Positions 1 through 44,596 of a stretch of DNA of 44,866 nt are shown here, piece by piece (position 1 is the stretch's first letter; each line of letters begins with the position of its first letter). The notes under the pieces were generated by a model. It saw only the letters and a list, made by a program, of their open reading frames with translations. It did no database searches and was not told where the DNA came from. The position numbers were made by a program, and so were the translations under genes. The stretch comes from a virus (Duplodnaviria; Heunggongvirae; Uroviricota; Caudoviricetes), in the IMG/VR virus record IMGVR_UViG_2579778842_000011, positions 1 to 44,866 of that record. One strand, written 5' to 3'.

Positions 1-672
1 ACGGTCCGGGATGATGCCGGCAGCCTGGGCGGATACCTGAATCTGACACACACGTCCTCCGGCCTGTGGGCTGACATTGTGGCACAGGGAACCCGCCACA
101 GCATGAAAGCGTCATCGGACAATAACGACTTCCGCGCCCGGGGCTGGGGCTGGCTGGGCTCACTGGAAACCGGTCTGCCCTTCAGTATCACTGACAACCT
201 GATGCTGGAGCCACAACTGCAGTACACCTGGCAGGGGCTCTCCCTGGATGACGGCCAGGATAACGCCGGTTATGTGAAGTTCGGGCATGGCAGTACACAA
301 CATGTGCGTGCCGGCTTCCGTCTGGGCAGCCACAACGATATGACCTTTGGCAAAGGCACCTCATCCCGTGACACTCTGCGCGACAGTACAAAACACGGTG
401 TGAGTGAACTGCCTGTGAACTGGTGGGTACAGCCTTCTGTTATCCGCACCTTCAGCTCCCGGGGAGACTTGAGCATGGGGACAGCCGCCGCCGGCAGTAA
501 CATGACGTTCTCACCGTCCCGGAATGGCACGTCACTGGACCTGCAGGCCGGACTGGAAGCCCGTGTCCGGGAAAATATCACCCTGGGCGTTCAGGCCGGT
601 TATGCCCACAGCGTCAGCGGCAGCAGCGCTGAAGGTTATAACGGTCAGGCCACGCTGAATGTGACTTTCTGA
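1..672 (+). CDS. flu: Autotransporter adhesin (antigen 43-like), C-terminal beta-barrel translocator domain; 5' end lies outside the window
   Basis: Frame is open from base 1 into the 79..672 track ORF; ends ...[12 protein letters not shown] with terminal aromatic residue typical of autotransporter beta-domains; followed by a hairpin terminator. Confidence 0.7.
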
Positions 673-693
673 TAATCAGGTCACACCCCTTCA

Positions 694-722
694 GGCCCCG
701 GTCATCATGACCGGGGCCTTTT
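694..722 (+). terminator. Rho-independent terminator after the autotransporter gene
   Basis: GGCCCCGG..CCGGGGCC inverted repeat followed by TTTT. Confidence 0.6.
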
Positions 723-742
723 ACTTACAGGGAGCAACAGAT

Positions 743-976
743 ATGCCGGGTTGTACATCACGTTTATTGCCCGAAGGCCCTTTCTCACGCAACCAGGCTC
801 TTGCCGTCACAACGGCTTACCTTAATGTGCTTATTGAAGATGACCAGGGAACGCATTTCCGGCTGGTGATCCGCAACGCTGAAGGCCAGTTGCGCTGGCG
901 GTGCTGGAATTTTGAACCTGATGCCGGAAAACAGCTAAATCCGTATCTCGCCAGTGAGGGAATTCTCAGGCAATAA
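743..976 (+). CDS. DUF905-like small protein (YkfF-like) of CP4-type islands
   Basis: Internal ATG at 743 preceded by GGAG at 8 nt; motif [17 protein letters not shown]...HFRLV...WNFEPDAG resembles recalled YkfF family. Confidence 0.55.
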
Positions 977-999
977 ACGTCATTCACTTGATCCATCAG

Positions 1000-1030
1000 G
1001 CCGCGTCTTCTCCGGAAGACGCGGCTTTTT
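1000..1030 (+). terminator. Rho-independent terminator
   Basis: GCCGCGTCTTC-TCCG-GAAGACGCGGC stem-loop followed by TTTTT. Confidence 0.7.
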
Positions 1031-1066
1031 CATTTATACCGCTTAATCATTCATAAGGAGCCAATT

Positions 1067-1885
1067 ATGCGATTAGCCAGCCGTTTTGGTTATGTAAATC
1101 AGATCCGCCGGGAGCGCCCGCTGACACGCGAAGAACTGATGTACCACGTCCCGAGTATTTTTGCGGAAGACCGGCACACCTCCCGCAGTGAACGGTATGC
1201 GTACATTCCCACCATCACCGTCCTGGAAAATCTGCAGCGGGAAGGCTTTCAGCCGTTCTTCGCCTGCCAGACCCGTGTGCGCGACCAGAGCCGCCGGGAA
1301 TATACCAAACATATGCTGCGTCTGCGACGGGCCGGACAGATAACCGGTCAGCATGTGCCTGAAATTATTCTGCTCAACTCCCATGACGGTTCATCCAGCT
1401 ACCAGATGTTACCCGGATATTTTCGTGCCATCTGCACCAATGGCCTGGTCTGCGGTCAGTCGCTGGGAGAAGTCCGGGTGCCACACCGGGGAAACGTGGT
1501 GGACAGTGTGATTGAAGGTGCTTACGAGGTGGTGGGGGTTTTTGACCGGATTGAAGAAAAGCGTGACGCCATGCAGTCGCTGGTCCTGCCGCCACCGTCA
1601 CGCCAGGCGCTGGCACAGGCGGCACTGACTTACCGTTATGGTGACGAACATCAGCCCGTCACCACCGCCGACATTCTGACGCCACGACGCCGGGAGGATT
1701 ACGGTAAGGACCTGTGGAGTGCTTATCAGACCATCCAGGAGAATATGCTGAAAGGCGGGATTTCCGGTCGCAGTGCCAGAGGAAAACGTATCCATACCCG
1801 TGCCATTCACAGCATCGACACGGACATTAAGCTCAATCGCGCATTGTGGGTGATGGCAGAAACACTGCTGAAGAGTATGCGCTGA
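1067..1885 (+). CDS. DUF932-like protein (YfjQ-like) of CP4-type islands
   Basis: 272 aa ORF with AAGGAG RBS; N-terminus MRLASRFGYVNQIRRERPLTREEL matches recalled YfjQ-like family. Confidence 0.55.
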   Translation: MRLASRFGYVNQIRRERPLTREELMYHVPSIFAEDRHTSRSERYAYIPTITVLENLQREGFQPFFACQTRVRDQSRREYTKHMLRLRRAGQITGQHVPEIILLNSHDGSSSYQMLPGYFRAICTNGLVCGQSLGEVRVPHRGNVVDSVIEGAYEVVGVFDRIEEKRDAMQSLVLPPPSRQALAQAALTYRYGDEHQPVTTADILTPRRREDYGKDLWSAYQTIQENMLKGGISGRSARGKRIHTRAIHSIDTDIKLNRALWVMAETLLKSMR

Positions 1886-1975
1886 TGCCTTTTCCCTGAA
1901 AGCGCAGTTCTGACTCATGTCCGTCCCTGCCCCGCGACTTCTTCCATTCATTTACTTTTTATAAGGAATAATCTC

Positions 1976-2461
1976 ATGACAACCGTTTTGCATAATTCCA
2001 CCACACCTTCTGTTTCCGTAACCGCTGTATCAGAGAATAACCCGCCTCAACTGGTTGCCACCCTCGTCCCTGATGAACAGCGCATCAGCTTCTGGCCGCA
2101 GCATTTTGGCCTCATTCCACAGTGGGTGACCCTGGAGCCCCGTGTCTTCGGCTGGATGGATCGTCTGTGCGAAGACTACTGCGGTGGTATCTGGAATCTG
2201 TACACCCTGAACAACGGCGGGGCATTTATGGCACCCGAACCGGATGACGATGATGACGAAACATGGGTACTGTTCAGTACCATGAACGGTAACCGCGCTG
2301 AAATGAGCCCGGAAGCCGCCGGCATTGCTGCCTGTCTGATGACGTACAGCCATCATGCCTGTCGTACGGAGTGTTATGCCATGACGGTCCATTATTACCG
2401 GCTGCGGGATTACGCCCTGCAGCATCCGGAATGCAACGCCATTATGCGCATCATTGACTGA
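1976..2461 (+). CDS. Antirestriction protein (ArdB/KlcA family, YfjX/YafX-like)
   Basis: 161 aa; acidic DDDDDE stretch and conserved C-terminal half typical of CP4-island antirestriction proteins; AAGGA RBS. Confidence 0.7.
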   Translation: MTTVLHNSTTPSVSVTAVSENNPPQLVATLVPDEQRISFWPQHFGLIPQWVTLEPRVFGWMDRLCEDYCGGIWNLYTLNNGGAFMAPEPDDDDDETWVLFSTMNGNRAEMSPEAAGIAACLMTYSHHACRTECYAMTVHYYRLRDYALQHPECNAIMRIID

Positions 2462-2475
2462 AAGGGGCCGGAACA

Positions 2476-2952
2476 ATGCAACAGCTTTCCTTTCTGCCCG
2501 GAGAGATGACGCCCGGCGAGCGCAGCCTCATTCAGCGGGCCCTGAAAACCCTGGACCGCCATCTTCATGAACCCGGCGTGGCCTTCACCTCCACGCATGC
2601 GGCACGGGAGTGGCTGATTCTGAACATGGCGGGACTGGAGCGGGAAGAGTTCCGGGTGCTGTATCTGAACAACCAGAATCAGCTGATTGCCGGTGAAACC
2701 CTCTTCACCGGCACCATCAACCGCACGGAAGTCCATCCCCGGGAAGTGATTAAACGTGCCCTGTACCACAATGCCGCCGCCGTGATACTGGCACACAACC
2801 ACCCGTCCGGTGAAGTCACACCCAGCAAGGCAGACCGCCTTATCACGGAACGTCTGGTACAGGCACTGGGCCTGGTGGATATCCGGGTGCCGGACCATCT
2901 GATAGTCGGTGGCAGCCAGGTTTTCTCCTTTGCGGAACACGGCCTGCTTTAA
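2476..2952 (+). CDS. RadC-like JAB/MPN domain protein (YeeS/YfjY/YkfG-like)
   Basis: 158 aa; JAMM-type motif HNHPSG...S..D present. Confidence 0.85.
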   Translation: MQQLSFLPGEMTPGERSLIQRALKTLDRHLHEPGVAFTSTHAAREWLILNMAGLEREEFRVLYLNNQNQLIAGETLFTGTINRTEVHPREVIKRALYHNAAAVILAHNHPSGEVTPSKADRLITERLVQALGLVDIRVPDHLIVGGSQVFSFAEHGLL

Positions 2953-3020
2953 CCCGTCACCGTCACAACCACATCACACCTGTTTTCACTTTTATCTTCT
3001 GTCTTCAGAGGTATCCCATT

Positions 3021-3242
3021 ATGAAAATCATCACCCGTGGTGAAGCCATGCGTATTCACCAACAGCATCCTGCATCCCGTCTTTTTCCGTTCTGTACCGG
3101 CAAATACCGCTGGCACGGCAGCACTGAAACGTATACCGGTCGTGAAGTGCAGGATATTCCCGGTGTGCTGGCCGTGTTTGCTGAACGCCGTAAGGACAGT
3201 TTTGGCCCGTATGTCCGGCTGATGAGCGTCACTCTGAACTGA
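3021..3242 (+). CDS. DUF987 protein (YeeT-like)
   Basis: 73 aa; near-identical by eye to recalled YeeT (MKIITRGEAMRIHQQHP...YVRLMSVTLN). Confidence 0.8.
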   Translation: MKIITRGEAMRIHQQHPASRLFPFCTGKYRWHGSTETYTGREVQDIPGVLAVFAERRKDSFGPYVRLMSVTLN

Positions 3243-3260
3243 GTCAGTAAGGGCATTCTG

Positions 3261-3905
3261 ATGAGCAGAATTATCACCACCACCGTGTATACACTGCATG
3301 AGCTATCCTCCACCGCACAGGAAAAAGCCCGCGACTGGTACCGTCAGCATCATGCTGACAGCAACTGGTATGAAAACGTGTATGAAGACTTCAGGGAGGT
3401 CTGTGGCATTTTCGGAATTGACCTCCGCCAGCGCGTTTTCCGGCTCAGCAACGGCAGGTTTATGGAAGAGCCGTGCATCTGGTTCAGCGGATTCTGCGGC
3501 CAGGGAGACGGAGCCTGTTTTGAAGGACGCTGGCACTGGCAGCCAGCGGCACCCCGGAAAATCAGGGAATATGCCCCGCAGAACCGTGAGCTTCATCGTA
3601 TCTCGGATGCCCTGCAGGTGGTGCAGAAACGTAACTTCTGGCAACTGCAGACTGAAATCCACCACCGGGGACGCGACTGCCATCCGTACAGCATGGATAT
3701 CACGGTTACCCGGAACAGTCCGACTGGTCAGGCTATGACAACCGATGCGGAAGCCGCAGTCAGCGAAGCCCTGCGCGACCTGGCCTTCTGGTTGTACCGT
3801 CAACTGGAAAACGAGTACGACTGGCTGACCTCAGACGCCGCTGTGGATGAGGCCCTTCTCATCAACGAATACACCTTCACCGAAGCCGGTCTGCGCGCCG
3901 GCTGA
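3261..3905 (+). CDS. Hypothetical protein (island accessory gene)
   Basis: 214 aa ORF in same orientation between DUF987 and the antitoxin; no recognisable motif. Confidence 0.4.
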   Translation: MSRIITTTVYTLHELSSTAQEKARDWYRQHHADSNWYENVYEDFREVCGIFGIDLRQRVFRLSNGRFMEEPCIWFSGFCGQGDGACFEGRWHWQPAAPRKIREYAPQNRELHRISDALQVVQKRNFWQLQTEIHHRGRDCHPYSMDITVTRNSPTGQAMTTDAEAAVSEALRDLAFWLYRQLENEYDWLTSDAAVDEALLINEYTFTEAGLRAG

Positions 3906-3954
3906 CTCGTCATCGTTAAACTATCATTCACCGATTTTCTGTAAGGATTTTATC

Positions 3955-4323
3955 GTGTCAGACTCACTCCATGAAACAAATTATCCCGACGATAACAACG
4001 ACCGCCCCTGGTGGGGGCTACCCTGCACCGTGACGCCCTGTTTTGGGGCACGTCTGGTGCAGGAGGGTAACCGGTTGCATTACCTTGCCGACCGTGCCGG
4101 TATCAGAGGCCGGTTCAGCGACGCGGATGCGTACCACCTGGACCAGGCCCTTCCGCTGCTGATGAAACAACTGGAGCTCATGCTCACCAGCGGTGAACTG
4201 AATCCCCGCCATCAGCATACCGTCACGCTGTATGCCAGAGGGCTGACCTGCAAAGCCGATACCCTCAGCAGTTGTGGTTACGTTTATCTGGCTGTTTATC
4301 CGACGCCCAAAATGAAAAATTAA
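3955..4323 (+). CDS. Type IV antitoxin, CbeA/YeeU/YfjZ/YafW family
   Basis: GTG start at 3955 after AAGGA; ...DRPWWGLPCTVTPCFGARLVQEGNRLHYLADRAGI...VYLAVYPTP matches recalled YeeU; immediately upstream of the toxin gene. Confidence 0.85.
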   Translation: MSDSLHETNYPDDNNDRPWWGLPCTVTPCFGARLVQEGNRLHYLADRAGIRGRFSDADAYHLDQALPLLMKQLELMLTSGELNPRHQHTVTLYARGLTCKADTLSSCGYVYLAVYPTPKMKN

Positions 4324-4411
4324 CTCTCCAGAATAGCCTTCTGCTACGGCCTGGTGTTTTCACCACGCCACTTTCCCATTTTTATATCTGCATATCAGGA
4401 AAATCTTCAGT

Positions 4412-4789
4412 ATGAAAACATTACCTGTATTACCCGGGCAGGCGGCCAGTTCTCGCCCGTCTCCTGTTGAAATCTGGCAGATACTGCTGTCCCGACTGCT
4501 GGACCAGCACTACGGCCTCACACTGAATGACACACCGTTTGCCGATGAACGTGTGATTGAGCAGCATATTGAAGCTGGCATTTCACTGTGTGATGCGGTG
4601 AACTTTCTCGTGGAAAAATACGCACTGGTGCGTACCGACCAGCCGGGATTCAGCGCCTGTACCCACTCTCAGTTAATAAACAGCATCGATATCCTCCGGG
4701 CCCGCCGGGCGACAGGCCTGATGACCCGCGACAATTACAGAACGGTAAATAACATTACCTTGGGTAAACATCCGGGGGCGAAACAATGA
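4412..4789 (+). CDS. Type IV toxin, CbtA/YeeV/YkfI/YpjF family (cytoskeleton-targeting)
   Basis: 125 aa; MKTLPVLPGQAASSRPSPVEIWQILLSRLLDQHYGLTLNDTPF... essentially as recalled for YeeV. Confidence 0.85.
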   Translation: MKTLPVLPGQAASSRPSPVEIWQILLSRLLDQHYGLTLNDTPFADERVIEQHIEAGISLCDAVNFLVEKYALVRTDQPGFSACTHSQLINSIDILRARRATGLMTRDNYRTVNNITLGKHPGAKQ

Positions 4790-5274
4790 AACTGGCCCTG
4801 ACGCTGGAAGCCGACAGCATTAACGTGCAGGCACTGAACATGGGGCGAATTGTCGCTGACGTCGATGGTGTTAATCTCACTGAACTGATTAACAAGGTCG
4901 CTGAAAACGGTTATTCACTCCGCGTGGTGGAGGAATCCGACCAACAGTCAACCTGCACACTACCACCGTTTGCAACCCTTGCCGGCATACGCTGCAGTAC
5001 CGCACATATCACGGAAAAGGATAACGCCTGGCTGTACTCGCTGTCACACCAGACCAGTGACTTCGGTGAATCAGAATGGATTCATTTCACAGGTAGCGGA
5101 TATCTGTTACGTACCGATGCGTGGTCATATCCGGTTCTGCGGCTCAAGCGCCTGGGGCTGTCAAAAACGTTCCGTCGTCTGGTTGTCACACTCATCCAAC
5201 GTTATGGCGTCAGTCTCATTCATCTGGATGCCAGCGCTGAATGTCTGCCGGACCTGCCCACTTTCGACTGGTAA
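4786..5274 (+). CDS. YeeW-like protein
   Basis: 162 aa ORF whose ATGA start overlaps the toxin stop, as in yeeV-yeeW arrangements. Confidence 0.55.
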   Translation: MKLALTLEADSINVQALNMGRIVADVDGVNLTELINKVAENGYSLRVVEESDQQSTCTLPPFATLAGIRCSTAHITEKDNAWLYSLSHQTSDFGESEWIHFTGSGYLLRTDAWSYPVLRLKRLGLSKTFRRLVVTLIQRYGVSLIHLDASAECLPDLPTFDW

Positions 5275-5285
5275 CCAGGAACAAC

Positions 5286-5483
5286 ATGAAATCATTAACC
5301 ACGGAAACCGCACTGGATATTCTGATTGCGTGGCTACAGGACAATATCGACTGCGAATCGGGAATTATCTTTGACAACGATGAGGATAAAACGGATTCGG
5401 CAGCACTGCTGCCCTGCATTGAACAGGCCAGGGAGGATATCCGTACCCTGCGCCAGTTGCAGTTTCTGCAACAGAACCAGTGA
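5286..5483 (+). CDS. Small hypothetical protein (DUF957-like?)
   Basis: ATG at 5286 preceded by CAGGA; 65 aa; position after yeeW-like gene. Confidence 0.4.
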   Translation: MKSLTTETALDILIAWLQDNIDCESGIIFDNDEDKTDSAALLPCIEQAREDIRTLRQLQFLQQNQ

Positions 5484-5567
5484 GTCTTACTCACCAGACT
5501 TCATTCCACTGACGCCAGCCTGAACAGGGCTGGCGTTTTCATTTATCTGCAAAAAGGAATATCGATT

Positions 5568-6410
5568 ATGTCTGATATCACAGCCTCCCGTCCGGAAGTG
5601 GTCAACGGGCATACGGACGTTATCTGCTCAACCAGTATCCGCCACATTCTGACTGTACGAAAGAGTACGCTGCTGCAAATCGACACACTTATCCGGCAAC
5701 TGGCTGAAATCTCAGCAATGACAGAAAGTATTGGCGGTAAAACCGCACTGGACTGGGCGATGAAACAGGATTTTCGCTGTGGCTGCTGGCTGATGGAAAA
5801 ACCGGAAGCAGCAATGAAAGCCATCACCCGCAATCTCGATCGAGAAATCTGGCGTGACCTGATGCAACGTTCCGGGATGCTGTCATTAATGGATGCGCAG
5901 GCCCGTGATACATGGTACCGGTCACTGGAGTACGATAATTTTCCGGAAATCAGCGAAGCGAACATCCTGAGCACATTTGAACAACTGCACCAGAATAAGG
6001 ATGAGGTGTTTGAGCGAGGGGTGATCAACGTCTTCAGAGGGTTGAGCTGGAATTACAAAACCAACTCCCCCTGTAAATTTGGTAATAAAATTATCGTCAA
6101 CAATCTGGTGAGATGGGACCGGTGGGGATTTCATCTGAACAGCGGGCAACAGGCAGATCGACTTGCCGACCTGGAAAGAATGCTGCACCTGTTCAGCGGC
6201 AAACCAATCCCCGACAACCGGGGAAACATCACCCTTCGTCTGGATGATCACATTCAGTCTGTTCAGGGTAAAGAGAGCTATGAAGATGAGATGTTCAGCA
6301 TCAGATACTTTAAGAAGGGCTCCGCACACATCACGTTCAGGAAACCAGAACTGGTTGACAGACTGAATGATATTATCGCAAAACACTATCCTGACATGCT
6401 GGCAGTATAG
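5568..6410 (+). CDS. Hypothetical protein, last gene of the island before serX
   Basis: 280 aa ORF with AAGGA RBS; no recognisable catalytic motif. Confidence 0.45.
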   Translation: MSDITASRPEVVNGHTDVICSTSIRHILTVRKSTLLQIDTLIRQLAEISAMTESIGGKTALDWAMKQDFRCGCWLMEKPEAAMKAITRNLDREIWRDLMQRSGMLSLMDAQARDTWYRSLEYDNFPEISEANILSTFEQLHQNKDEVFERGVINVFRGLSWNYKTNSPCKFGNKIIVNNLVRWDRWGFHLNSGQQADRLADLERMLHLFSGKPIPDNRGNITLRLDDHIQSVQGKESYEDEMFSIRYFKKGSAHITFRKPELVDRLNDIIAKHYPDMLAV

Positions 6411-6518
6411 CTTTGCCAGTATGCTCAAAGATCGGAAATTGTCCGATAAGATATGATCGCGGGGCATATAAACCGGTTTCAGATGGCATACCCGATGGCA
6501 TACTGTCCGGAAGGATAA

Positions 6519-6554
6519 ATAAAAAAGCGCATGTTAAACAATAACATGCGCTTA
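6519..6554 (-). terminator. Rho-independent terminator downstream of tRNA-Ser
   Basis: On minus strand AAGCGCATGTT..AACATGCGCTT hairpin followed by TTTTTT. Confidence 0.7.
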
Positions 6555-6559
6555 TAATC

Positions 6560-6647
6560 TGGCGGTGAGGGGGGGATTCGAACCCCCGATACGTTGCCGT
6601 ATACACACTTTCCAGGCGTGCTCCTTCAGCCACTCGGACACCTCACC
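6560..6647 (-). tRNA. serX: tRNA-Ser (anticodon GGA)
   Basis: Reverse complement reads GGTGAGGTGTCCGAGTGG...CCTGGAAAG...GGTTCGAATCCCCCCCTCACCGCCA: 88 nt, long variable arm, GGA anticodon loop, CCA end; adjacent to ghrA as at the serX locus. Confidence 0.9.
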
Positions 6648-6841
6648 AAATTGTCGTTCCTGTCTTGCTGGAACGGGCGCTAATTTAGGGAAATCATGAC
6701 CTGAGGTCAACAAACTTTTTTAAAAAATCGCGCGTTTATTCAAACTTCAATCAATATGCAGTTTTAATAAGCGAAATCTGCTTTTTTTGCCACCGACCAC
6801 GGATTTGTTATGCTGGTGGCTTTTGTAGATCATAACGATAA

Positions 6842-7819
<978 letters not shown>

Positions 7820-7858
7820 TAAAGCATCAGGATTCCTGCTATCCTTGGCGGGAATTGA

Positions 7859-8299
<441 letters not shown>

Positions 8300-8350
8300 C
8301 TAAAATTTTTATTCATCGAATCGTTTGATTGATTAGTGAGCGGTTGAACG

Positions 8351-8405: not shown

Positions 8406-8642
8406 GGTACTGTTCCACGGGTGAAATAAAGGGAGTTTTCGGCACCCCGGTTTTTGATGTGCGTGTGAGATTTCAAAACAGGTGCAGTGCAGCCCACCAG
8501 CGCGGTCGCTACGCGACTATTAACACCCGCTAATCCCTTTCCCCGCCTCGATCTTTCCCTTCGTTATAAAGCGTTTTAGGCGCTCTCCTGAATGCGCAGA
8601 TCAGATAAATAATTTTACGCAAATTTAATGGAGGATAACCGG

Positions 8643-9197
8643 ATGAAAGAAGAATTAACCCTTACAGAAATTTCCCGCTTATACGGCTATACAATTAACG
8701 CCGCTAAGAAATGGCAAGAACGAGGAATGCCATTTAACACCAATACCCGCCGCGTACCAGCCAAAGAGGGGACCGAGTGGGTATTAAAAAATATCATCAA
8801 CCCGCTTAAAGAAACTACTGTCAAAGAACAAATCGACGTAGAAAAATTACGCCGTGAGAGAGCATTAGCGGATGCAGCCGAACGAGAGAACCAGGAAGCA
8901 ATGAATCTCCTGATTCCCGTCGGTTATGTAGAACAGCAACTAGCGGAATATTGCGGGAAAGTGAAGCAGACTATTTTGCAGATCGCCACAATCGACGCTT
9001 TAGAAATTCTCGAATCTGCCACTGACCAGAAAACATTAAAGAATAAGCTAAGGGAGATTATCGAGCGTCGTTTAAATGAAGTAGGGGACTTGTTCGAAAA
9101 TGCAGATTTGGGAGAAGACGAGGAAGAAGAATTACCATTAATGGATGAACCGGAAGAACAAGAACCAGAAGAAGACGATGAATTTGATGTGTCTTAA
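8643..9197 (+). CDS. Nu1-like winged-helix DNA-binding protein (terminase small subunit or recombination directionality factor candidate)
   Basis: ATG 8643 with GGAGG RBS; LTLTEISRLYGYTINAAKKWQERGMPF and EKLRRERALADAA resemble recalled lambda Nu1 N-terminus; acidic C-terminal tail. Confidence 0.45.
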   Translation: MKEELTLTEISRLYGYTINAAKKWQERGMPFNTNTRRVPAKEGTEWVLKNIINPLKETTVKEQIDVEKLRRERALADAAERENQEAMNLLIPVGYVEQQLAEYCGKVKQTILQIATIDALEILESATDQKTLKNKLREIIERRLNEVGDLFENADLGEDEEEELPLMDEPEEQEPEEDDEFDVS

Positions 9198-9840: not shown

Positions 9841-9865
9841 GGGACTCTTCGGAGTCCCTTTTTTT
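9841..9865. terminator. Bidirectional rho-independent terminator between convergent transcription units
   Basis: GGGACTC-TTCG-GAGTCCC followed by T7 on plus strand; overlaps the stop codon of the minus-strand 313 aa gene. Confidence 0.7.
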
Positions 9866-10805
9866 ATTGGCAGTAAGAAAAGTTAGTACCGTACATTTCA
9901 TCATGAAGCATTGCAGCATTGCGTTTCTGTTCTTCTTCCTCATCTTCTACATCACTAGAAAAATGAGATTTGCCCTTAAAAGAACGAAGTAATTGCAGTG
10001 CAGCCATCGGATCACGCATCACATCGATTTTCACTTCTACTTCATCATTTGCGGCCTCATCAGCCGCGTTTTCAACTACTGCCACCGGAGCAACTTCTTT
10101 AGCTTTCAGTTCTTCAATCTCAGCTTTCTGTGCTTCGATGATCTGGTCTTTTTCTTTCAGTGCAGCTTTCAGTTCTGCGATCTGTGCTTCCAGTGCAGCA
10201 AAGCGATCTTCAACAACCGGAGAAACAGCATTCACCTGTGCTTCCAGTTCCAGAAATGCTTCGCAAGATTCAATACGTTCTTTCTCTTCACCTTCATAAG
10301 CAACCAGTTCTACAACTTCTTTTTCGGTAGCGTGGCTGTTAAAGAATACAGCAAAGTAAGGATTGCCGGATTTAGTGAAGTTCAGTTTAGCTTTTCCGGT
10401 AACTTCTTTACGACGACCAAAGGTGATCTGGCAATCAGCGGTATCCTGAAAATCCATGTTAGGAGCGGAAACGATAGCAGTATCACCAGCAATAACCAGG
10501 TGGAACAGTTCAGAAGAGTTCTTAACGGTAAAGGTAACGATGTGGTCTACTGCAACGTCTTTAGCAGGTTTAACGCGGTCGATTGCTTTACGAATGCCGT
10601 TAGGCAGTTTACCGTCAACACCAAAGCCAGCCGCGATCAGTGCTTCACGATGTGCTTTAAAGCCAGCGAAAGCGGATTTCTGCTGCGCAAAGGAAACATG
10701 AGCAACAACTTTCGGCTGAATCTTCTTGTTTGCTTCGGTGCCAAATTTGATAACTGCTTTAGCGTTGGTTACTTCGTTAGTGAAAAAGTTAGCGGAAAAT
10801 AACAT
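9864..10805 (-). CDS. Hypothetical protein with central coiled coil and acidic C-terminal tail
   Basis: 313 aa; strong AGGAG RBS; heptad-like EAQIAELKAALKEKDQIIEAQKAEIEELKAK segment; C-terminal DVEDEEEEQ. Confidence 0.5.
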   Translation of the reverse strand: MLFSANFFTNEVTNAKAVIKFGTEANKKIQPKVVAHVSFAQQKSAFAGFKAHREALIAAGFGVDGKLPNGIRKAIDRVKPAKDVAVDHIVTFTVKNSSELFHLVIAGDTAIVSAPNMDFQDTADCQITFGRRKEVTGKAKLNFTKSGNPYFAVFFNSHATEKEVVELVAYEGEEKERIESCEAFLELEAQVNAVSPVVEDRFAALEAQIAELKAALKEKDQIIEAQKAEIEELKAKEVAPVAVVENAADEAANDEVEVKIDVMRDPMAALQLLRSFKGKSHFSSDVEDEEEEQKRNAAMLHDEMYGTNFSYCQ

Positions 10806-10854
10806 ATAAATACTCCTGAATACTCTGTGTTAGTTTTAATGTTTCATATCAAAA

Positions 10855-10890
10855 GCCTCCTTGCGCCAACAGGGAGGCTTTTTTATTTTT
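10855..10890. terminator. Hairpin terminator between the two minus-strand genes
   Basis: GCCTCCTTG..CAGGGAGGC stem followed by TTTTTTATTTTT on plus strand, A-run on the other side. Confidence 0.5.
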
Positions 10891-10922: not shown

Positions 10923-11105
10923 TTACCAGACCTCGGCGGTAATCTTTACTTTAATGTCATACTTCTTTAAGAGTTTGTGAAAGGTTGATTGATCAATACC
11001 TTCACCTTTAAACCATTCACCCATCACTACATCAGGTGTCAGTTCAAAATAACGCTTTGCCATTTCTAAAACGATTTCACGAGTGAACTTAACAGGTCGT
11101 GCCAT
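10923..11105 (-). CDS. Small DNA-binding protein with resolvase/Hin-type HTH-like motif
   Basis: 60 aa; AGGAGG RBS; RPVKFTRE...GIDQSTFHKLLKKYDIK pattern; paralogous to 14641..14865. Confidence 0.45.
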   Translation of the reverse strand: MARPVKFTREIVLEMAKRYFELTPDVVMGEWFKGEGIDQSTFHKLLKKYDIKVKITAEVW

Positions 11106-11158
11106 CTTGAATCCTCCTAAATCTGGATTAATGATTTCTTAAAAAAGAGCGTCAACCG

Positions 11159-11175
11159 CTCACTATTATTTATAT
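11159..11175 (-). promoter_or_regulatory. Recurrent 17-mer (copy 2, ATATAAATAATAGTGAG on minus strand) upstream of the 60-aa gene
   Basis: Followed by AGTGAGCGGTTGACG, which also occurs at 8335-8350 near the prophage junction. Confidence 0.4.
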
Positions 11176-11622
11176 GGGGATTGTATTTTATTTTTCAACC
11201 CCTCACATTTATCTCTTATATATGTATTTATAACAGAGATATGTTAAAATGTTATTCAGATGTTATCAGACGTGTTAAATGTGTTAAACCGCAGCACGAA
11301 TTGCTAAAGCGGAGAGCACGAATTAACCAAATTGATGTATATTCAATCAATTTAGAAAAAGGCATAGCACTTTTTGCTAAAGCGGTGAGCATTAATTGAG
11401 CTATGAATTGTAAAGATTTGTTACAAGATTTTCTCTCAGATCCAAATCTTCACAAACATATAACAATTTAACAGAAGGATAACAAATGAAAGGAAATCGG
11501 TAAATTTTCACTTTCAATACAAATATTATACCACATTTTTCTCGAATTGTCAATTATAGCACCGATCCTACACAGTGTCAACAAAGGATTTTCAAACCTA
11601 CACTAGCCCTACACTATGAAAA

Positions 11623-11808
11623 TTGCCCCTGAATTTTTGCCCCTGAACCAAAATCCCCTAGATTCCACATCCAATTTTTGCCCCTGAAACCCACTATTTT
11701 TGCCCCTGAAATTCTGGGAAACAGTGATTTTGCCCCTCATTTTTGCCCCTGAAATGCCAATAATTGCCCCTGAAAATCTAATTTTTGCCCCTGAAATTTG
11801 CCCCTGAA
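11623..11808 (+). repeat. Iteron-like array: 9 direct copies of TTGCCCCTGAA (8 exact, 1 variant)
   Basis: Copies at 11623, 11637, 11678, 11700, 11730 (variant TTGCCCCTCAT), 11743, 11764, 11785, 11798; all same orientation, irregular 13-41 bp spacing, within a 1.4 kb region lacking ORFs of 60 aa or more. Confidence 0.75.
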
Positions 11809-12436
11809 AAGGATTTGTGAGAAAAACTCTTTATAAAACATTAACTTAGTGAGTGGCAAAACGGGGAATCGGGCGTGCATAGATATTATATAACACATTC
11901 GCTACGCTCATGTGTAAAACCAAAAACAACAAATAACCAAAAAGATATTAGGAGGGCGTAGCCCGACTGCGCGAAGCGCTAACCAATTACTTCTAGTAAC
12001 ACTAATTTAAACTAGATGATACTAGATGGTCTTAGAAGGAATTAACTAGTTTGCTCGCTCGCTTCGCTCACTCTCAAACGTCTGCGACGCCACTGCGTGG
12101 CATCGAGAATCACTTCTGAAAGGATTTTCTTGAAAGGGATTTTAAACTAGTTACTAACTGATTCTAGAAAGATAGTAATAATCACTTTGAAGATAATAGT
12201 AGTTAACTGGTTACTAGATGATTCTAGATCACTTTAATGATCATGAAAGGTATTGGTATCCCTTCGGGATTGCAACCTTCGGTTGCTAAATTGCTTCCTG
12301 ATTATAATTTCTCCAAAAGAAAGATTCTTATATTCTAAAGATACTTCTTCGTTTTGATGATGATTTAATCAAAATCTATGAAGGAGGCGAAGCCGACTGA
12401 ATACCAATTCCTTTCAAATTAGACAAAAATTTCTCG

Positions 12437-12453
12437 TTATAAATAATAGTGAA
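12437..12453 (+). promoter_or_regulatory. Recurrent 17-mer (copy 3, TTATAAATAATAGTGAA) about 35 nt upstream of gene 12489
   Basis: Sequence identity to copies 1 and 2. Confidence 0.4.
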
Positions 12454-12488
12454 CTTACTTTGATTCACTTTTTTAGAGGATTTCCACT

Positions 12489-14324: not shown

Positions 14325-14332
14325 TAATTTTT

Positions 14333-14356
14333 GCCCCTGAATTTCAGGGGCTTTTT
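14333..14356 (+). terminator. Rho-independent terminator built from the iteron motif
   Basis: GCCCCTGAA-T-TTCAGGGGC perfect inverted repeat followed by TTTTT. Confidence 0.75.
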
Positions 14357-22071: not shown

Positions 22072-22477
22072 TAACATGCCGAGACTGAAAATCAAACGCG
22101 CCTTGCAAGATATTATCGAACAAGATTTAGGTCTGGCTTTAAACGTAGAACAAACTCAGCAAGGCTTTAGTGATGATGTGGTTTGTTGGATCACCGGAAT
22201 GAATGAGACTTACACTAGGGTCCGTGGTGGTAATGCAATGCAAGCTGAATGCGTTATCGAAATGCAATTATATTCTCAGATTCATGAAACCAAAATTCAT
22301 GAGGGTATTTGCCAGATAATCCAGATTCAGCCGGATAACCCACGTTTTAAAGATTTGGGCTTCTCTATTTCAGATATCACTCCAGTAGCTTCTAATACCG
22401 ATTATGACGATGATTCTAGTGATGGGGGTATCGTTGGGACACTTAGCCTTAAATTTTCTTATCTAGCGCGTTTTTAA
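22055..22477 (+). CDS. Putative head-tail joining protein
   Basis: ORF 22007..22477; ATG 22055 has GGGGG 5 nt upstream; overlaps end of previous gene; start uncertain (alternative 22076). Confidence 0.35.
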   Translation: MLATVNNMPRLKIKRALQDIIEQDLGLALNVEQTQQGFSDDVVCWITGMNETYTRVRGGNAMQAECVIEMQLYSQIHETKIHEGICQIIQIQPDNPRFKDLGFSISDITPVASNTDYDDDSSDGGIVGTLSLKFSYLARF

Positions 22478-23399: not shown

Positions 23400-26300
23400 A
23401 TGCAGTCGATCCAATTTAAACGCACACAAACGGCTGGTAAAAAACCAACGCCGGAACAATTATCACAGGGTGAAATCGCCTTACAACTGGCGGACCATGT
23501 GATTTACACCAAAGATAAAAATAATAACGTAGTCCAAATTAGTGTTTCTCCAGAAAAACACGCTGAACTGAATACGAAAGTAGACACCAACAAGGTCAAT
23601 ACAGATAAAGTCATTTCAGCAAATAAAACCGAAGCCGCTAATAATCTGGCTAGTGCTAAAGCTGAACTTAATCAGACTATCACTTCTACCCGTGATGCTC
23701 TCAATGCTTCAATCACTGCTGGCGACACCGCAGCCAACAAACGAATTGATGCTTTGACTACCACAGTAGGTAACAATAAAACCGAAGCGGCTAACGCTCT
23801 GGCGGCTGCTAAGACTGAACTGAATCAGACTATTACTTCAACCCGCGATACTATCAACGCAACAATTAACAAGAACAAGACAGATATTAATGCACGAGTT
23901 GATCAGACTAATACCAACGTTACTAACTTAACGAATAATATCGCAGCAAATAAATCAGCAATAGAAAAGACGGTAGCGGATAATAAGAAAGATGCGGACA
24001 CGAAGATCACCAATCTTACTAGTACGGTCTCTGCGAATAAGACATCCATTGAAAGAACTGTTGCAAATAACAAGGCCAGTGCCGATGCCGCAATTGCCGC
24101 AGCTAATCAGCGAATTGATTCTATTGAAGGTAGTGCCGATGCTGCTTACATCAAGAAGAATACCAACACTTACCATCACGGCTATCTGTTAACCAAAACA
24201 GCTAACTATTTGGAAGACCAGACAGCGAGAGATCTTAACTACTTTGGTGCTTTCCGTACCAATGGTCAAGATGGACTCATGGATCTAACTCTTAACGTTC
24301 CTCACTCTGCCGGCAAAGCGCACGGTCGCGGATTTACTTTCCGTTATGCGTCTGGTGGATCTCGTGTTGAAACCTATGGTTTTGATAGAGAAGGACAGAA
24401 GAACTTTAGCTATAAGATGTATCACGAAGGTGATAAGCCGACTCCTGGCGAAATCGGTGCATACACTAAAGCAGAAGTTGACAAGATGTTTGTTAAAAAC
24501 GTCACTATGTCTGTTCCTAATTCTAGCGAAAACGTATCTGCATATTTCAAATTGGCAACCGCAACAATTCCACAAAACGGGCGTAGTGTGTTTTTCCGTA
24601 TTCATGGTGGTAATGGTTACAACGTTACGGCATATGACCAAGTTGATGTAGTAGAAATTCTTCTCCGTAGTGGTAACGATAGACCTAAAGGACTTAACGT
24701 AGTTGCATATCGTCGAAATACCGTCAAAGATTTTGATGTATTTGCCGTCAATACATCCGGTGATAACTATGACATTTATGTGAAATATCAGCGTTACACT
24801 GATAACGTTATTGTTGAATTTGGTAAAAGTGTTTATGTTAATCTGACTGTTCACGATACACCGGAAGCCACGTTAATTAAACCTTCTGTTGGTGTTATTG
24901 ATGGGCGCATCATTACTCTATTCAATACAGAAAACAAACGAGGTGTGTTGAGTTTTGACGATAACCCACAAAATAGTTATGATATTGTTCACTTGAGTAA
25001 TGATAGGGGTACTGGACGAAAATATATTCGTAAATTCCGTAGCAACTATAACGAAATGATCTGGCATGAGACGGTTCAAGGTTCTACTTATCGACTCGCC
25101 ACGGGTAGTACAGATGCCCAGGAGATTCTATCCGTTGAATCTAGTAGCTCTATTGCTGGGACTCATAAAGGTAATATTCTTTCTGGTCGAATGATGTTGG
25201 GTGGCGGTAGTAATGTTATTACCTTGCGGCGTCCTGCTGGTCAATCCAACCATATTACGTTTCAAGATAATCGGACTGGATCTATTACCCGTCAAGGGTG
25301 GATCGGTTATGGTAATGCTGATACTAACGTTTTTGAATGGTATAGTGATGTAGGTGGCAGTTCTATTCGTCACCACATCGACGGACAGATCGAACTTGCA
25401 ACCGGTAACACAAAACGCGTTTATACTAACGCTCAATTCATCTCAATGAATAGCGACGCCTACCGTATGCTCTATGGTAATTATGGTGCATTCTGGCGTA
25501 ATGACGGCGTTAAAGTTTATCTTCTTTCTACTGCCGAAAATGATAAATTGGGCGGATGGAATACTTATCGTCCATTCATTTATGATTTAACTTCCGGCAA
25601 CGTTCAATTAGGCGGTGATGGTAACGAAGATGCATTAACGTTAGAACGTGCTTCTCGTGCCGCTCGCTTTAGTAATGACGTTTACATTAAGAAAGGGCAT
25701 TTGACTTTCGACGCTGGGCGATTAAATTCCCGCGATTATTTCCGGTTTAACCATTGGGGTGATAGCAATAACGGTCGCGATAACATCCTACAGATTGAAG
25801 ACAGTCAGGGCGCACATTTTATCACTGAACGTGCTATGGGTACTGGTAACATAACAACACGTTTTAGAGGCTTTGTACGTGTAGAATCTGGTGAAATTGC
25901 ATTTGATGCTAACCGTGGTTCTTCTTCGCAATTTAGTCTCCATACATGGGGTAACGAGCAACGCAAACAGGTTTTTGAATGTAAGGATGCTACAAGTTAT
26001 CACTGGTATACTGAACGTACTCAGGGTGGCACTGGACCTATTCTGTTCTCTATGGCGGGTAGTCTAAACGTTGCTAGCAATATCACAACAACTGGTGCTG
26101 ATATTACGTTTAAACGCGCTGGCAATAAGCACATCTGGTTTAGAGATCCAAACGGTTTAGAGTTGGGCTTGATGTATTGCGATGACGCTGGTGTTATTCG
26201 CTTCCGTGGTGAGAAACAAACCGAAGTCTGGAAATTCGGCGGTAAGATGATTCACCTTGAAACGGGCACTGTATCCGGTGGCGGTAATGGTCTTATTCGT

Positions 26301-40326: not shown

Positions 40327-40895
40327 TAGTTCCACTCCACACTTGCAATATTCTTTATATTGTTTAGTGATTTATTGCAGTAGTGGAATGTTTCAGTTTT
40401 GCCGTATTCAATCCCGCCTATACCCACATCCAGTAATCTCTTTATTGCTCTTTCAGTGGCTAAAGCATGTTTCATTGATGGCATTTCACCAGCAAAGACA
40501 ATATCAAAGTTATGACCGGGATTGCGTACACCCAGATTAATGCGTCGCTTGATGATTGACTTTGTTACACCAAATTTACCAATATCCCCTGATTTCATTA
40601 CATAGAGATAAGGCACACCCGCTTTATATTGAAAGTAATCACTTTTGAGACATGCACAGCGTTTACCTTCATTAAGCAGGTTGGTAGCTGATTTGTCGGC
40701 TCTATTGCCGCATCGGGTACATGTAAGAGCAATTCTTGAATGAAGCCCTTTAAACTCACCCAGAAAGCCATGAAAGACTAATGGTAAGTCCTTATCTTTG
40801 ATGTGAGTCAGAATGCGTTGTTCTAATGCCGATGGAGTTACAGCACGGGAGGATTTAGGAGTAAAAACAATATCTTTAGCCATTACTGGAATCAT
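40326..40895 (-). CDS. Zinc-ribbon + T5orf172/GIY-YIG-like domain protein
   Basis: 189 aa; GAGG RBS; CTRCGN...CAC Cys cluster; YLYVMKSGDIGKFGVTK...R...E pattern. Confidence 0.5.
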   Translation of the reverse strand: MIPVMAKDIVFTPKSSRAVTPSALEQRILTHIKDKDLPLVFHGFLGEFKGLHSRIALTCTRCGNRADKSATNLLNEGKRCACLKSDYFQYKAGVPYLYVMKSGDIGKFGVTKSIIKRRINLGVRNPGHNFDIVFAGEMPSMKHALATERAIKRLLDVGIGGIEYGKTETFHYCNKSLNNIKNIASVEWN

Positions 40896-43978: not shown

Positions 43979-44043
43979 ACCATTTCCAAACAAAAACGCC
44001 CCTACCGTGTATTATAACGATAGGGGCATTGGTTAGTAAGTCA

Positions 44044-44289
44044 TTAATATTTCTTTCCAGTTAGTTTTGCATCACGTTTATTAATATCCTCGATATGACT
44101 CCATACACACGCAGTAATAAAGTCGTCATCGTCACCAACTCCGGCAACCTGTGCTAATTCAGTACACAGTTGATTTAAAGAAGGTGCAACGGCAGCACGT
44201 TTGACACTATCACCCTGTACATATTGTTCGGCATTTGCAGCACCAACCAAACCCAGAGCAAGAACAACACCAGCGATAATCTTTTTCAT
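44044..44289 (-). CDS. Small secreted protein (moron candidate)
   Basis: 81 aa; AGAGGA RBS; signal-peptide-like MKKIIAGVVLALGLVGAANA followed by A-E; two Cys. Confidence 0.5.
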   Translation of the reverse strand: MKKIIAGVVLALGLVGAANAEQYVQGDSVKRAAVAPSLNQLCTELAQVAGVGDDDDFITACVWSHIEDINKRDAKLTGKKY

Positions 44290-44334
44290 AGTAGAATTTC
44301 CTCTTGTTATTTGAATTACGATATATTTATATCA

Positions 44335-44460: not shown

Positions 44461-44596
44461 TGCTCACCCCATACTAACGACAATATAAGAAAGACTAATC
44501 ATGGTTGTGAGACTACCTCCCACGAATGAGATAAAAGCTAACATGTTTGATTCTCCATTTAAAAAGCGGTGGGAATTGCACCCACCAAATTAGAAA

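What the first reader, a model, noticed from the sequence alone, without database searches (positions are those of the whole stretch)
11623..11808. Array of nine direct 11-bp repeats (TTGCCCCTGAA) in an ORF-free 1.4 kb region
Eight exact and one variant copy, all in one orientation, within 186 bp and with irregular 13-41 bp spacing. This is the architecture of iterons (initiator binding sites at a replication origin or partition/centromere site) or of a clustered operator array. The same motif forms the palindromic terminator at 14333-14356 (GCCCCTGAA-T-TTCAGGGGC), so one phage protein may recognise both. No obvious replication initiator gene lies in the window, so the cognate binding protein is unidentified; candidates are the small HTH proteins or the 313-aa coiled-coil protein encoded divergently upstream.
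Basis: seen in the sequence. Interest (0 to 1): 0.65.

Follow-up and report, generated by a model that had tools for sequence, protein, structure and literature searches.

The report
Type-matched repeat array and binding protein
The nine repeats are real and are most likely the docking sites for a previously unknown 313-residue protein encoded next door in an E. coli prophage; related prophages swap repeat sequence and protein together, as a replication origin and its initiator would, though a gene-switch role is not excluded.

Summary
Eight exact and one variant TTGCCCCTGAA lie on one strand at 11623-11808, inside a 1383-bp ORF-free region.

The window is E. coli chromosome plus a ~38-kb prophage inserted in ycdX. 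In 44 loci (window plus 43 related), the same position always holds a same-orientation repeat array. The repeat sequence comes in five kinds: A (this window), B, C, D and E.

The kind matches, 44 of 44, the N-terminal domain type of the 313-340 aa coiled-coil protein ("CC", 9864-10805, minus strand). The DNA between them (the p60 gene and the left half of the non-coding region) assorts independently, as do the TerS-like, p150, Rha and TerL genes. A CC that is 50% identical pairs with a near-variant repeat. So the array is very probably CC's binding platform.

Repeat spacing is helically phased. The array is not a structured RNA. CC has no sequence or fold relative.

The layout fits an iteron origin with its initiator best (about 0.45): phased repeats, a 77% A+T stretch, promoters driving the p60-CC operon, and no other initiator in the phage. 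A transcriptional operator or enhancer array is the main rival (about 0.3).

The proposed link to the terminator at 14333-14356 is not supported. That hairpin occurs in prophages of all array types.

The parts
11623..11808 (+). Array of nine same-orientation repeats: 8 exact TTGCCCCTGAA at 11623, 11637, 11678, 11700, 11743, 11764, 11785, 11798; variant TTGCCCCTCAT at 11730. Full unit about ATTTTTGCCCCTGAAA.
   Evidence: conserved with unit-sized insertions/deletions in 15 A-type loci
9864..10805 (-). Gene for the 313-aa coiled-coil protein 'CC', the inferred cognate binder. Basic beta-rich N-domain (about residues 1-175, pI 9.1), coiled coil (about 181-237), acidic C-terminal part (pI 4.4).
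   Evidence: co-variation of N-terminal type with array type in 44/44 loci; domain layout; no Pfam, PHROG, NCBIfam, PDB or fold match
10923..11105 (-). p60 gene, first gene of the leftward operon, lying between array and CC. Not type-specific.
   Evidence: identical or near-identical p60 next to A, B and C arrays
11525..11581 (-). Two tandem consensus sigma-70 promoters (TTGACA-17-TATAAT, 12/12, TG extension) reading leftwards towards p60 and CC. The nearest -35 lies 42 bp from the first A repeat.
   Evidence: pattern match only; activity not shown
11597..11616 (+). Two CCTACACTA units (the B-type repeat) between the promoters and the A array.
   Evidence: kept in most A-type and the E-type loci
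11650..11668 (+). Single C-type-like unit AAAATCCCCTAGATTCCAC embedded between A copies 2 and 3.
   Evidence: conserved in all 15 A-type arrays
11809..11848 (.). 40-bp stretch, 77% A+T, directly right of the last repeat. Candidate unwinding element if the array is an origin.
   Evidence: read; conserved between A and C types; inference only, since the whole region is A+T-rich
11849..11861 (-). Inverted partial copy of the repeat (TTTTGCCACTCAC on the - strand). Most A-type relatives have the better match TTTTGCCCCTCAC.
   Evidence: 10-nt inverted match in L001 and 9-nt in L018, each reached by 1 of 1000 shuffles; only 7 nt in the window itself, reached by 41 of 1000
11147..11161 (-). Terminator-like hairpin plus T-run just upstream of the p60 ribosome-binding site, in the leader of the leftward operon.
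   Evidence: hairpin kept with a different stem and loop in the alternative leader version
10851..10882 (.). 13-bp-stem hairpin between p60 and CC; possible attenuator in front of CC.
11106..12488 (.). Conserved ORF-free control region between p60 (-) and p150 (+). Mosaic: left part in two versions, then the type-specific array cassette (about 11590-11950), then a right part shared by most relatives.
14327..14356 (+). Bidirectional terminator hairpin after the Rha gene. Its left arm plus T-run is identical to the A unit over 15 nt. Tested and found not coupled to the array type.

Best explanation
The array is the sequence-specific docking platform of the 313-aa coiled-coil protein CC, encoded 0.8 kb to its left. 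Array and CC N-terminal domain form a matched specificity pair. The pair exists in at least five interchangeable versions within a family of ~38-kb Escherichia prophages. Proposed mechanism (inferred): CC dimerises or oligomerises through its coiled coil. Its basic N-domains occupy the same-orientation repeats, which lie mostly on one face of the helix. The resulting nucleoprotein complex acts as an iteron-type replication origin: it opens the adjacent A+T-rich 40 bp (11809-11848) and recruits host replication proteins through the exchangeable acidic C-terminal domain. Because the array sits directly upstream of the promoters that drive the p60-CC operon, the same complex probably also feeds back on CC synthesis, as in iteron plasmids. 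Shown: repeats, phasing, co-variation, domain layout. Inferred: binding. Hypothesis: origin function. My confidence is about 0.85 that the array is CC's target and about 0.45 for the whole statement including origin function.
For: (1) 44/44 loci pair the CC N-terminal type with the array type: A 17 (15 plus 2 with chimeric CC), B 19, C 1, D 6, E 1. CC types share only 20-29% identity. (2) The p60 gene and the left non-coding half lie between CC and the array. They occur in several versions that combine freely with types A and B, so linkage alone does not explain the pairing. (3) Graded match: the E-type CC is 50-52% identical to A, and its repeat TTTTTGCCCCTC is a near-variant of TTTTTGCCCCTGAA. 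(4) Chimeric CC, with the A N-domain and coiled coil joined to a C-terminal domain of the C/E kind, still sits next to A arrays. This maps the specificity to the N-terminal part. (5) The TerS-like, p150, Rha, p200 and TerL genes do not co-vary with the array. (6) 31 of 42 spacings across the five types fall within 2 bp of a multiple of 10.5 bp, against 43% expected (p = 5e-5); 20-23 bp dominates, as in classical iterons. (7) The N-domain is basic (pI 8.5-9.7) and the tail acidic. (8) No other candidate initiator, primase or polymerase was found in the prophage. (9) The order inverted copy, A+T-rich stretch, direct repeats, promoter, binder gene mirrors iteron replicons such as P1 oriR/repA and pSC101 (own knowledge). 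(10) In relatives, the leader of the p60-CC operon carries three LexA-type boxes. In strain 14EC029 a deletion removed the array, p60 and the CC N-terminus while downstream prophage genes remain in the stretch held. Both fit a lytic-phase function better than a maintenance repressor.
Confidence: 0.45

Rival explanations
1. Transcriptional control array. CC is a type-specific regulator, either a repressor that defines immunity groups or an activator or autoregulator of the lytic switch. It binds the array to control the adjacent leftward promoters, and through looping also distal promoters.
For: The co-variation evidence is the same. The array starts 42 bp upstream of two consensus promoters. 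Extra inverted sites lie 1-2 kb away in B-type phages, and an inverted copy lies 40-70 bp to the right in A and E types, which suggests looping. The phage has no recognisable repressor, so that job is unassigned. Hypervariable matched modules are typical of phage immunity regions (own knowledge). Direct-repeat operators spaced two turns apart are known for the P2 C repressor (own knowledge).
Against: No repeat overlaps a predicted promoter, and none was predicted inside the array. The rightward early promoters (12420-12447 and a similar one before 13062) carry no repeat and are not type-specific. LexA boxes in the operon leader of relatives would make a maintenance repressor SOS-inducible, which is the wrong way round. 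Strain 14EC029 tolerates loss of the array and the CC N-terminus. One strain carries two prophages with identical CC, which is uncommon for homoimmune phages, though gene conversion could explain it.
Confidence: 0.3
2. An RNA-level element. The array is transcribed and works as an unstructured C-rich, G-poor RNA: a Rho-loading site, or a string of binding motifs for CC acting as an RNA-binding attenuator or antiterminator.
For: All five repeat kinds are C-rich on the same strand. GC skew falls to -0.7 across the array. Terminator-like hairpins in the leftward operon suggest control by attenuation.
Against: No promoter was predicted that would transcribe the array rightwards. Spacing follows the DNA helical repeat, which has no meaning for RNA. 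Folding is no better than shuffles on either strand (z = +0.17 and +1.88) and there is no Rfam match.
Confidence: 0.07
3. Packaging recognition site (cosB- or pac-like), with CC as a terminase accessory or small subunit.
For: Terminase small subunits also have an N-terminal DNA-binding domain, a central coiled coil and a C-terminal partner-binding domain, and lambda/21 specificity pairs are known (own knowledge). The phage has a lambda gpA-type large terminase.
Against: A separate Nu1-like small-terminase candidate exists at 8628-9197 (PHROG 57; its W-QERGMP motif resembles lambda Nu1 as I recall it). It does not co-vary with the array. The two TerL N-terminal variants combine freely with both CC N-terminal and C-terminal types. 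The array is 3.8 kb from TerL.
Confidence: 0.04
4. Centromere-like partition site or architectural scaffold, for example for a plasmid stage of the phage.
For: Arrays of 11-bp-phased direct repeats bound by a small protein resemble R1 parC/ParR (own knowledge). The D-type array has up to 18 TCCCC cores, many at 11-bp steps.
Against: No ParA, ParM or TubZ-type NTPase is present in the prophage. All 64 places in complete E. coli genomes are chromosomal and none is on a plasmid.
Confidence: 0.04
5. Functionless repeat expansion by slippage that merely travels with the neighbouring gene.
For: Copy number changes by whole units between relatives.
Against: Five unrelated repeat sequences sit at the same position, each tied to one protein type across recombinant backgrounds. 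Orientation and helical phasing are conserved.
Confidence: 0.03

Closest known systems
Iteron origins with a cognate initiator (phage lambda ori/O; P1 oriR/RepA; pSC101, F, RK2, R6K)
   Same: Several same-orientation repeats about two helical turns apart, next to an A+T-rich stretch. The binder gene is adjacent and transcribed away from the repeats. Specificity is type-matched, as between lambdoid O proteins and their iterons. The protein is modular, with an N-terminal DNA-binding part and a C-terminal partner-binding part. Repeat copy number varies.
   Different: The binder has no similarity to the lambda O, Rep_3, RepA, pi or TrfA families by sequence or fold. No DnaA boxes or IHF sites are present. 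The repeats lie outside the binder gene (in lambda they lie inside O) and are separated from it by another gene and a 0.5-kb leader. Unit spacing is irregular (13-41 bp). Origin activity is untested.
Phage T4 oriE iterons
   Same: A cluster of about 12-nt direct repeats in a non-coding stretch of a phage, at a point of divergent transcription, with an unproven role (review PMC3016281). This prophage also carries T4-type modules: a UvsW-like helicase, Krischvirus-like fibre DNA and Krischvirus-like intergenic DNA.
   Different: T4's repeats are evenly spaced and no cognate binder is established. Here a cognate protein is identified by co-variation. There is no sequence similarity.
Direct-repeat operators of phage regulators (P2 C repressor and Cox; 186 Apl; mycobacteriophage L5 stoperators)
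   Same: Asymmetric sites in one orientation, helically phased, bound by a phage regulator, with type-specific variants between related phages.
   Different: Those sites overlap, or lie inside, the controlled promoters or transcription units, and the binders are small HTH proteins. Here nine sites are clustered upstream of the promoters and the binder is a 313-aa coiled-coil protein with a non-HTH N-domain.
R1 parC/ParR and pSM19035 omega arrays
   Same: Seven to ten short direct repeats in helical phase, bound cooperatively, doubling as promoter control sites.
   Different: No partner NTPase is present, the element is integrated rather than a plasmid, and the binder is not a ribbon-helix-helix protein.

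Membership tests
Iteron-type replication origin | Three or more same-orientation repeats with helical phasing | tested here: met
   9 copies on one strand. 31 of 42 spacings across the five types lie within 2 bp of n x 10.5 bp, p = 5e-5.
Iteron-type replication origin | Adjacent gene for a protein whose specificity matches the repeats | tested here: met
   CC N-terminal type pairs with array type in 44/44 loci, across recombinant backgrounds. This rests on co-variation; binding itself was not tested.
Iteron-type replication origin | Binder belongs to a known initiator family (lambda O, Rep_3, RepA/WH, TrfA, pi) | tested here: not met
   No Pfam, PHROG, NCBIfam or PDB hit beyond the coiled coil. 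No fold match.
Iteron-type replication origin | A+T-rich unwinding element beside the repeats | tested here: inconclusive
   11809-11848 is 77% A+T and is flanked by an inverted copy, but the whole region is A+T-rich.
Iteron-type replication origin | Host-factor sites (DnaA boxes, IHF) | tested here: not met
   None within one mismatch near the arrays of types A-D. Lambda ori also lacks DnaA boxes (own knowledge), so this feature is not decisive.
Iteron-type replication origin | Supports initiation of replication | not testable with these tools
   Needs marker-frequency sequencing or an origin-cloning test.
Repressor-operator immunity module | Binding sites overlap the controlled promoters | tested here: not met
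   The array begins 42 bp upstream of the nearest -35. No promoter is predicted in the array, and the rightward early promoters carry no repeat.
Repressor-operator immunity module | Co-resident relatives carry different types (heteroimmunity) | tested here: inconclusive
   UTME-9 carries A plus B. BS74R-D carries two prophages with identical A-type CC.
Repressor-operator immunity module | Binder is needed to keep the prophage silent | tested here: inconclusive
   Strain 14EC029 lacks the array, p60 and the CC N-terminus but keeps p150, Rha and the start of TerL in the stretch held. This is a single case, and the deletion may also have disabled lytic growth.
Partition centromere (parC/parS) | Partner NTPase gene (ParA, ParM or TubZ) in the element | tested here: not met
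   None in the annotated ~38-kb prophage.
Terminase recognition site (cosB/pac) | Site specificity co-varies with the small terminase subunit, and the binder's C-terminus with TerL | tested here: not met
   The TerS-like protein is 90-96% identical between A- and B-type phages. TerL N-terminal variants are independent of CC N- and C-terminal types.
Structured non-coding RNA | Folding energy better than shuffles, or a match to a curated RNA family | tested here: not met
   z = +0.17 (+ strand) and +1.88 (- strand). No Rfam match at gathering score, and only chance-level hits at E up to 1.
CRISPR array | Repeats of 23-50 bp separated by unique spacers of similar, regular length | tested here: not met
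   The unit is 11-16 bp and the gaps between units are 2-30 bp and irregular.

The most novel reading that the evidence does not exclude
CC founds a new family of sequence-specific DNA-binding proteins. Its N-domain (a small beta-barrel-like fold with two helices) has no detectable relative, and it has diversified into at least five specificities, each with its own iteron array. CC and its array would be the replicon-defining origin-initiator pair of a so far undescribed group of E. coli temperate phages. These phages lack every known replication and immunity gene, and their control region seems to rely on leader RNAs, attenuators and, in some members, LexA.
Probability: 0.35. Interest if true: 0.75.

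Novelty: new variant of a known kind. Interest (0 to 1): 0.6.

Why it matters
Repeat arrays paired with a cognate binder are a classical theme, but here the binder is an orphan protein with no recognisable DNA-binding fold. Nature supplies at least five matched protein-site pairs, plus a graded intermediate (type E) and domain-swap chimeras. That is a ready-made data set for working out a new protein-DNA recognition code. It also assigns a first function to the early region of a prophage group present in about 1% of complete E. coli genomes (58 of 5,426). That group includes ETEC and STEC strains and strains in which mcr-1 has inserted into the prophage. If the pair is the origin and initiator, it reveals a new initiator family and a simple way to type these phages. 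If it is a regulator, it defines their immunity groups.

Tried and rejected
- **Phage and plasmid records.** A near-identity DNA search of the region against 50,697 phage records found nothing. The distant search matched only an 85-nt stretch of T4-type intergenic DNA. The plasmid DNA search was empty, and protein searches with CC against phages and plasmids were also empty.
- **Species-representative genomes.** A p60-based scan of one genome per species found no relative, so the family seems confined to Escherichia and Shigella strains.
- **Protein homologues.** Searches with CC and with a multi-type profile were swamped by near-identical A-type sequences. The 50%-representative library gave only 12 hits.
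- **Structure prediction.** The single-sequence model was useless (pLDDT 46). The 15-sequence alignment gave a usable N-domain but no significant fold match. The afdb50 library was unavailable.
- **Terminase hypothesis.** Tested through TerS and TerL co-variation and rejected.
- **Host-factor sites and skew.** DnaA and IHF site scans and GC skew gave nothing.
- **RNA.** The structured-RNA idea was rejected.
- **Defence and naming libraries.** PADLOC and NCBIfam gave nothing for the early-region proteins apart from a weak Rha-family match for the Rha protein.
- **Leftward promoter at 11830-11859.** I considered one overlapping the inverted copy. It is not conserved in the E-type locus L018 (my reading), so I dropped it.
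- **LexA-controlled promoter.** I tried to place it in the alternative leader by eye and by scan. The direction was not resolved.
- **Literature.** Searches found no description of this prophage family.

Full report
**Observation**

The + strand carries eight exact TTGCCCCTGAA (11623, 11637, 11678, 11700, 11743, 11764, 11785, 11798) and one variant, TTGCCCCTCAT (11730). The only other exact copy in the 44,866-bp window is at 14331. About 0.02 exact copies would be expected by chance (own arithmetic). The conserved unit is longer than 11 bp, about ATTTTTGCCCCTGAAA. The array lies in a 1383-bp stretch (11106-12488) with no credible ORF.

**What the window is**

- Positions 1 to about 8300 are E. 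coli chromosome: tRNA-Ser at 6560-6647, ghrA, and the 5' part of ycdX.
- The rest is a ~38-kb prophage inserted in ycdX. It carries a large serine recombinase at its far end (42299-43993).
- It has a lambda gpA-type large terminase, a Nu1-like small-terminase candidate (8628-9197), siphovirus-type structural genes, an endolysin, a UvsW-type helicase and GIY-YIG nucleases.
- It has no recognisable repressor, initiator, primase or polymerase.
- No isolated phage in 50,697 records resembles the region.
- 58 of 5,426 complete E. coli genomes carry a related prophage, always chromosomal, inserted in ycdX, hicB or codB.

**Comparative result (the core finding)**

Every relative keeps an ORF-free region of 1.2-1.45 kb between a 60-aa gene (p60, minus strand) and a ~150-aa gene (p150, plus strand). 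At the position of the window's array, each relative has an array of same-orientation repeats, but the repeat sequence differs:

| Type | Repeat | Found in |
|---|---|---|
| A | TTTTTGCCCCTGAA | this window and 16 related loci |
| B | AAACCTACACTA | 19 loci |
| C | AAATCCCCAAGATTCCAC | 1 locus |
| D | TCCCCG-type cores, many at 11-bp steps | 6 loci |
| E | ATTTTTGCCCCTC | 1 locus |

- In 44 loci (the window, 15 from complete genomes, 25 from IMG/VR, 3 from assemblies) the array type matches the N-terminal type of the 313-340 aa coiled-coil protein CC (window 9864-10805, minus strand) without exception.
- CC types are only 20-29% identical to each other, and 95-100% identical within types A and B (73-100% within D).
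- The p60 gene and the left half of the non-coding region lie physically between CC and the array. They exist in several versions that combine freely with A and B. For example, the identical p60 protein WP_000113735.1 flanks both A and B arrays. Linkage therefore cannot explain the pairing; selection for a match can.
- The TerS-like protein, p150, Rha, p200 and TerL do not track the array.
- Two finer points strengthen the inference. The E-type CC is 50-52% identical to A and has a near-variant repeat. Natural chimeras with the A N-domain and coiled coil fused to the C-terminal domain of the C/E kind still sit beside A arrays. This maps the specificity to the N-terminal ~240 residues.

**Anatomy of the array**

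- All copies point the same way.
- Across the five types, 31 of 42 spacings lie within 2 bp of a multiple of 10.5 bp, against 43% expected (p = 5e-5). Steps of 20-23 bp are the commonest in types A, B, C and E, and 11-bp steps in type D. This argues for recognition of double-stranded DNA along one helical face.
- Copy number changes between A-type relatives by whole units.
- To the right of the last copy lies a 40-bp stretch of 77% A+T, then an inverted partial copy at 11849-11861. That copy is degraded by one mismatch in this window. It is significant in other A-type loci and in the E-type locus.
- To the left lie two B-type units (11597-11616), and inside the array one C-type unit (11650-11668). 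Both are conserved in A-type relatives.
- Forty-two bp left of the first A copy begin two tandem 12/12 consensus promoters with TG extensions, reading leftwards.
- Their transcript would cross a ~0.4-kb leader, meet a terminator-like hairpin just before p60 (11147-11161), and meet a second hairpin between p60 and CC (10851-10882).
- In most relatives the leader is replaced by another version with three LexA-type boxes, two of them overlapping as in colicin operons.
- The array region folds no better than shuffled sequence on either strand and matches no Rfam family.

**The CC protein**

- It has a basic, beta-rich N-domain (pI 8.5-9.7), a ~55-residue coiled coil, an acidic linker and a small C-terminal domain.
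- The C-terminal domain comes in three kinds that are exchanged independently of the N-domain.
- Nothing beyond the coiled coil matches Pfam, PHROGs, NCBIfam, PADLOC or PDB sequences.
- With a 15-sequence alignment, AlphaFold2 gives pLDDT 70-86 for residues 20-115.
- The fold is therefore unassigned and does not help decide function.

**Function**

That the array is CC's target is well supported, at about 0.85. What the complex does is inferred.

An origin-initiator pair fits best (about 0.45), for these reasons:
- The order inverted copy, A+T-rich stretch, phased direct repeats, promoter, binder gene is the standard layout of iteron replicons.
- The protein is modular, like lambda O.
- The phage has no other initiator candidate.
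- LexA boxes in the operon leader of relatives point to a function switched on at induction.
- Strain 14EC029 survives a deletion of the array, p60 and the CC N-terminus.

Against the origin reading:
- CC resembles no known initiator.
- There are no DnaA or IHF sites.
- No plasmid carries a relative.
- GC skew gives no signal.

A regulatory array is the main rival (about 0.3). It explains the co-variation equally well, because only prophages were sampled, and it would fill the vacant repressor role. However, no repeat overlaps a predicted promoter. Double lysogens are uninformative: one strain carries A plus B, another carries two prophages with identical CC. Packaging, partition, RNA-level and junk readings were each tested and are unlikely.

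**The terminator**

The left arm plus T-run of the hairpin at 14327-14356 is identical to the A unit over 15 nt. That is too long for chance. Yet the hairpin is present in A, B, C and D prophages, and I did not find it in the stretch held for several A-type loci (some of those loci end close to the Rha gene). It goes with the Rha module, not with the array type. The identity remains unexplained. In A-type phages CC might bind there as a by-product.

**Comparison and novelty**

- The system works like an iteron-initiator pair (lambda ori/O, P1 oriR/RepA) or like direct-repeat operators (P2 C and Cox).
- T4 oriE offers a phage precedent of direct repeats with an unproven role (PMC3016281).
- Membership in any known initiator or repressor family fails on the protein.
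- I therefore rate it a new variant of a known kind.
- Its main value is an orphan DNA-binding family with several natural protein-site pairs, and the first functional handle on an uncharacterised E. coli prophage group.

Noticed in passing
window 1-8300 and 42299-44866: The left 8.3 kb is E. coli chromosome (tRNA-Ser, ghrA, 5' part of ycdX). The prophage is inserted within ycdX by a large serine recombinase (42299-43993, - strand). Relatives use hicB or codB as insertion sites.
   Followed up: partly
L003, L005-L009, L011-L016 (left half of the ORF-free region); absent from window 11106-11590: The alternative version of the p60-CC leader carries three LexA-box-like CTG-N10-CAG sites, two of them overlapping as in colicin operons. 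This suggests direct SOS control in those relatives. The window version has none.
   Followed up: partly
window 11525-11581 (- strand): Two tandem perfect sigma-70 consensus promoters (12/12, with TG extension) sit back to back, followed by a ~0.4-kb untranslated leader that ends in a terminator-like hairpin (11147-11161) just before p60. This is reminiscent of RNA- or attenuation-based immunity as in P4.
   Followed up: no
window 12299-12382: About 80% identity to unannotated intergenic DNA of Krischvirus (RB49-like, T4-type) phages, present in one to three places per phage genome. It may be a mobile regulatory cassette.
   Followed up: partly
window 23400-26918: The 1172-aa tail-fibre gene is 78-89% identical at DNA level to the distal long-tail-fibre gene (gp37) of Krischvirus phages. 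This indicates recent exchange between a temperate siphovirus-like prophage and virulent T4-type phages.
   Followed up: no
window 38836-40335 (- strand): A UvsW-type helicase (UvsW_N, ResIII and Helicase_C domains) is encoded by a 38-kb temperate phage. Next to it are a CapR/T5orf172-domain protein and a GIY-YIG nuclease.
   Followed up: no
window 12011-12027, 12145-12168, 12205-12229: A second, non-type-specific family of repeats with TCTAGA cores lies in the right half of the ORF-free region. It has three 55-nt copies in L005.
   Followed up: no
window 12258-12270 and 12272-12286: Two adjacent hairpins with UUCG loops. The second is kept in L005 by a completely different stem (GACGCTC-TAGG-GAGCGTC), which suggests a conserved RNA or DNA structure upstream of p150.
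   Followed up: no
L009 (strain PE15) 1-2280; L048 (strain HeN100) 1-280: In PE15, mcr-1.1 with ISApl1 is inserted into this prophage family immediately beside the CC gene, replacing the prophage's left end. In HeN100, ISApl1 lies in the same position beside CC (mcr-1 itself is outside the stretch held), and an ISKpn26 sits in the right half of the ORF-free region.
   Followed up: no
L047 (strain 14EC029): An IS3-associated deletion removed the array, the left non-coding half, p60 and the 5' third of the CC gene. The p150, Rha, p76 and p200 genes and the start of TerL remain in the stretch held.
   Followed up: partly
L045 and L046 (strain BS74R-D); NZ_CP157110.1 (strain UTME-9): BS74R-D has two prophages of the family (in hicB and in ycdX) with identical CC and p60 proteins but different TerS-like, p150, Rha and TerL proteins. 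This may reflect gene conversion. UTME-9 carries one A-type and one B-type prophage.
   Followed up: partly
CC proteins P0194-P0215, P0254; L028, L049, L050: CC is modular. Three kinds of C-terminal domain are swapped independently of the N-domain. L028 has a duplication within the coiled coil. C-terminal kinds ii and iii come with an extra downstream coiled-coil gene whose product ends in LRLVA.
   Followed up: partly
L004 4477, 4495, 5488; also L007 and L008: B-type prophages carry two or three extra exact GTGTAGGTTT (inverted B units) inside the leftward operon, 1-2 kb from the array.
   Followed up: no
window 22242-22332 (- strand): ARAGORN calls a 91-nt tRNA-Gln inside the structural gene block. 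Rfam does not support it, so it is probably a false positive.
   Followed up: no
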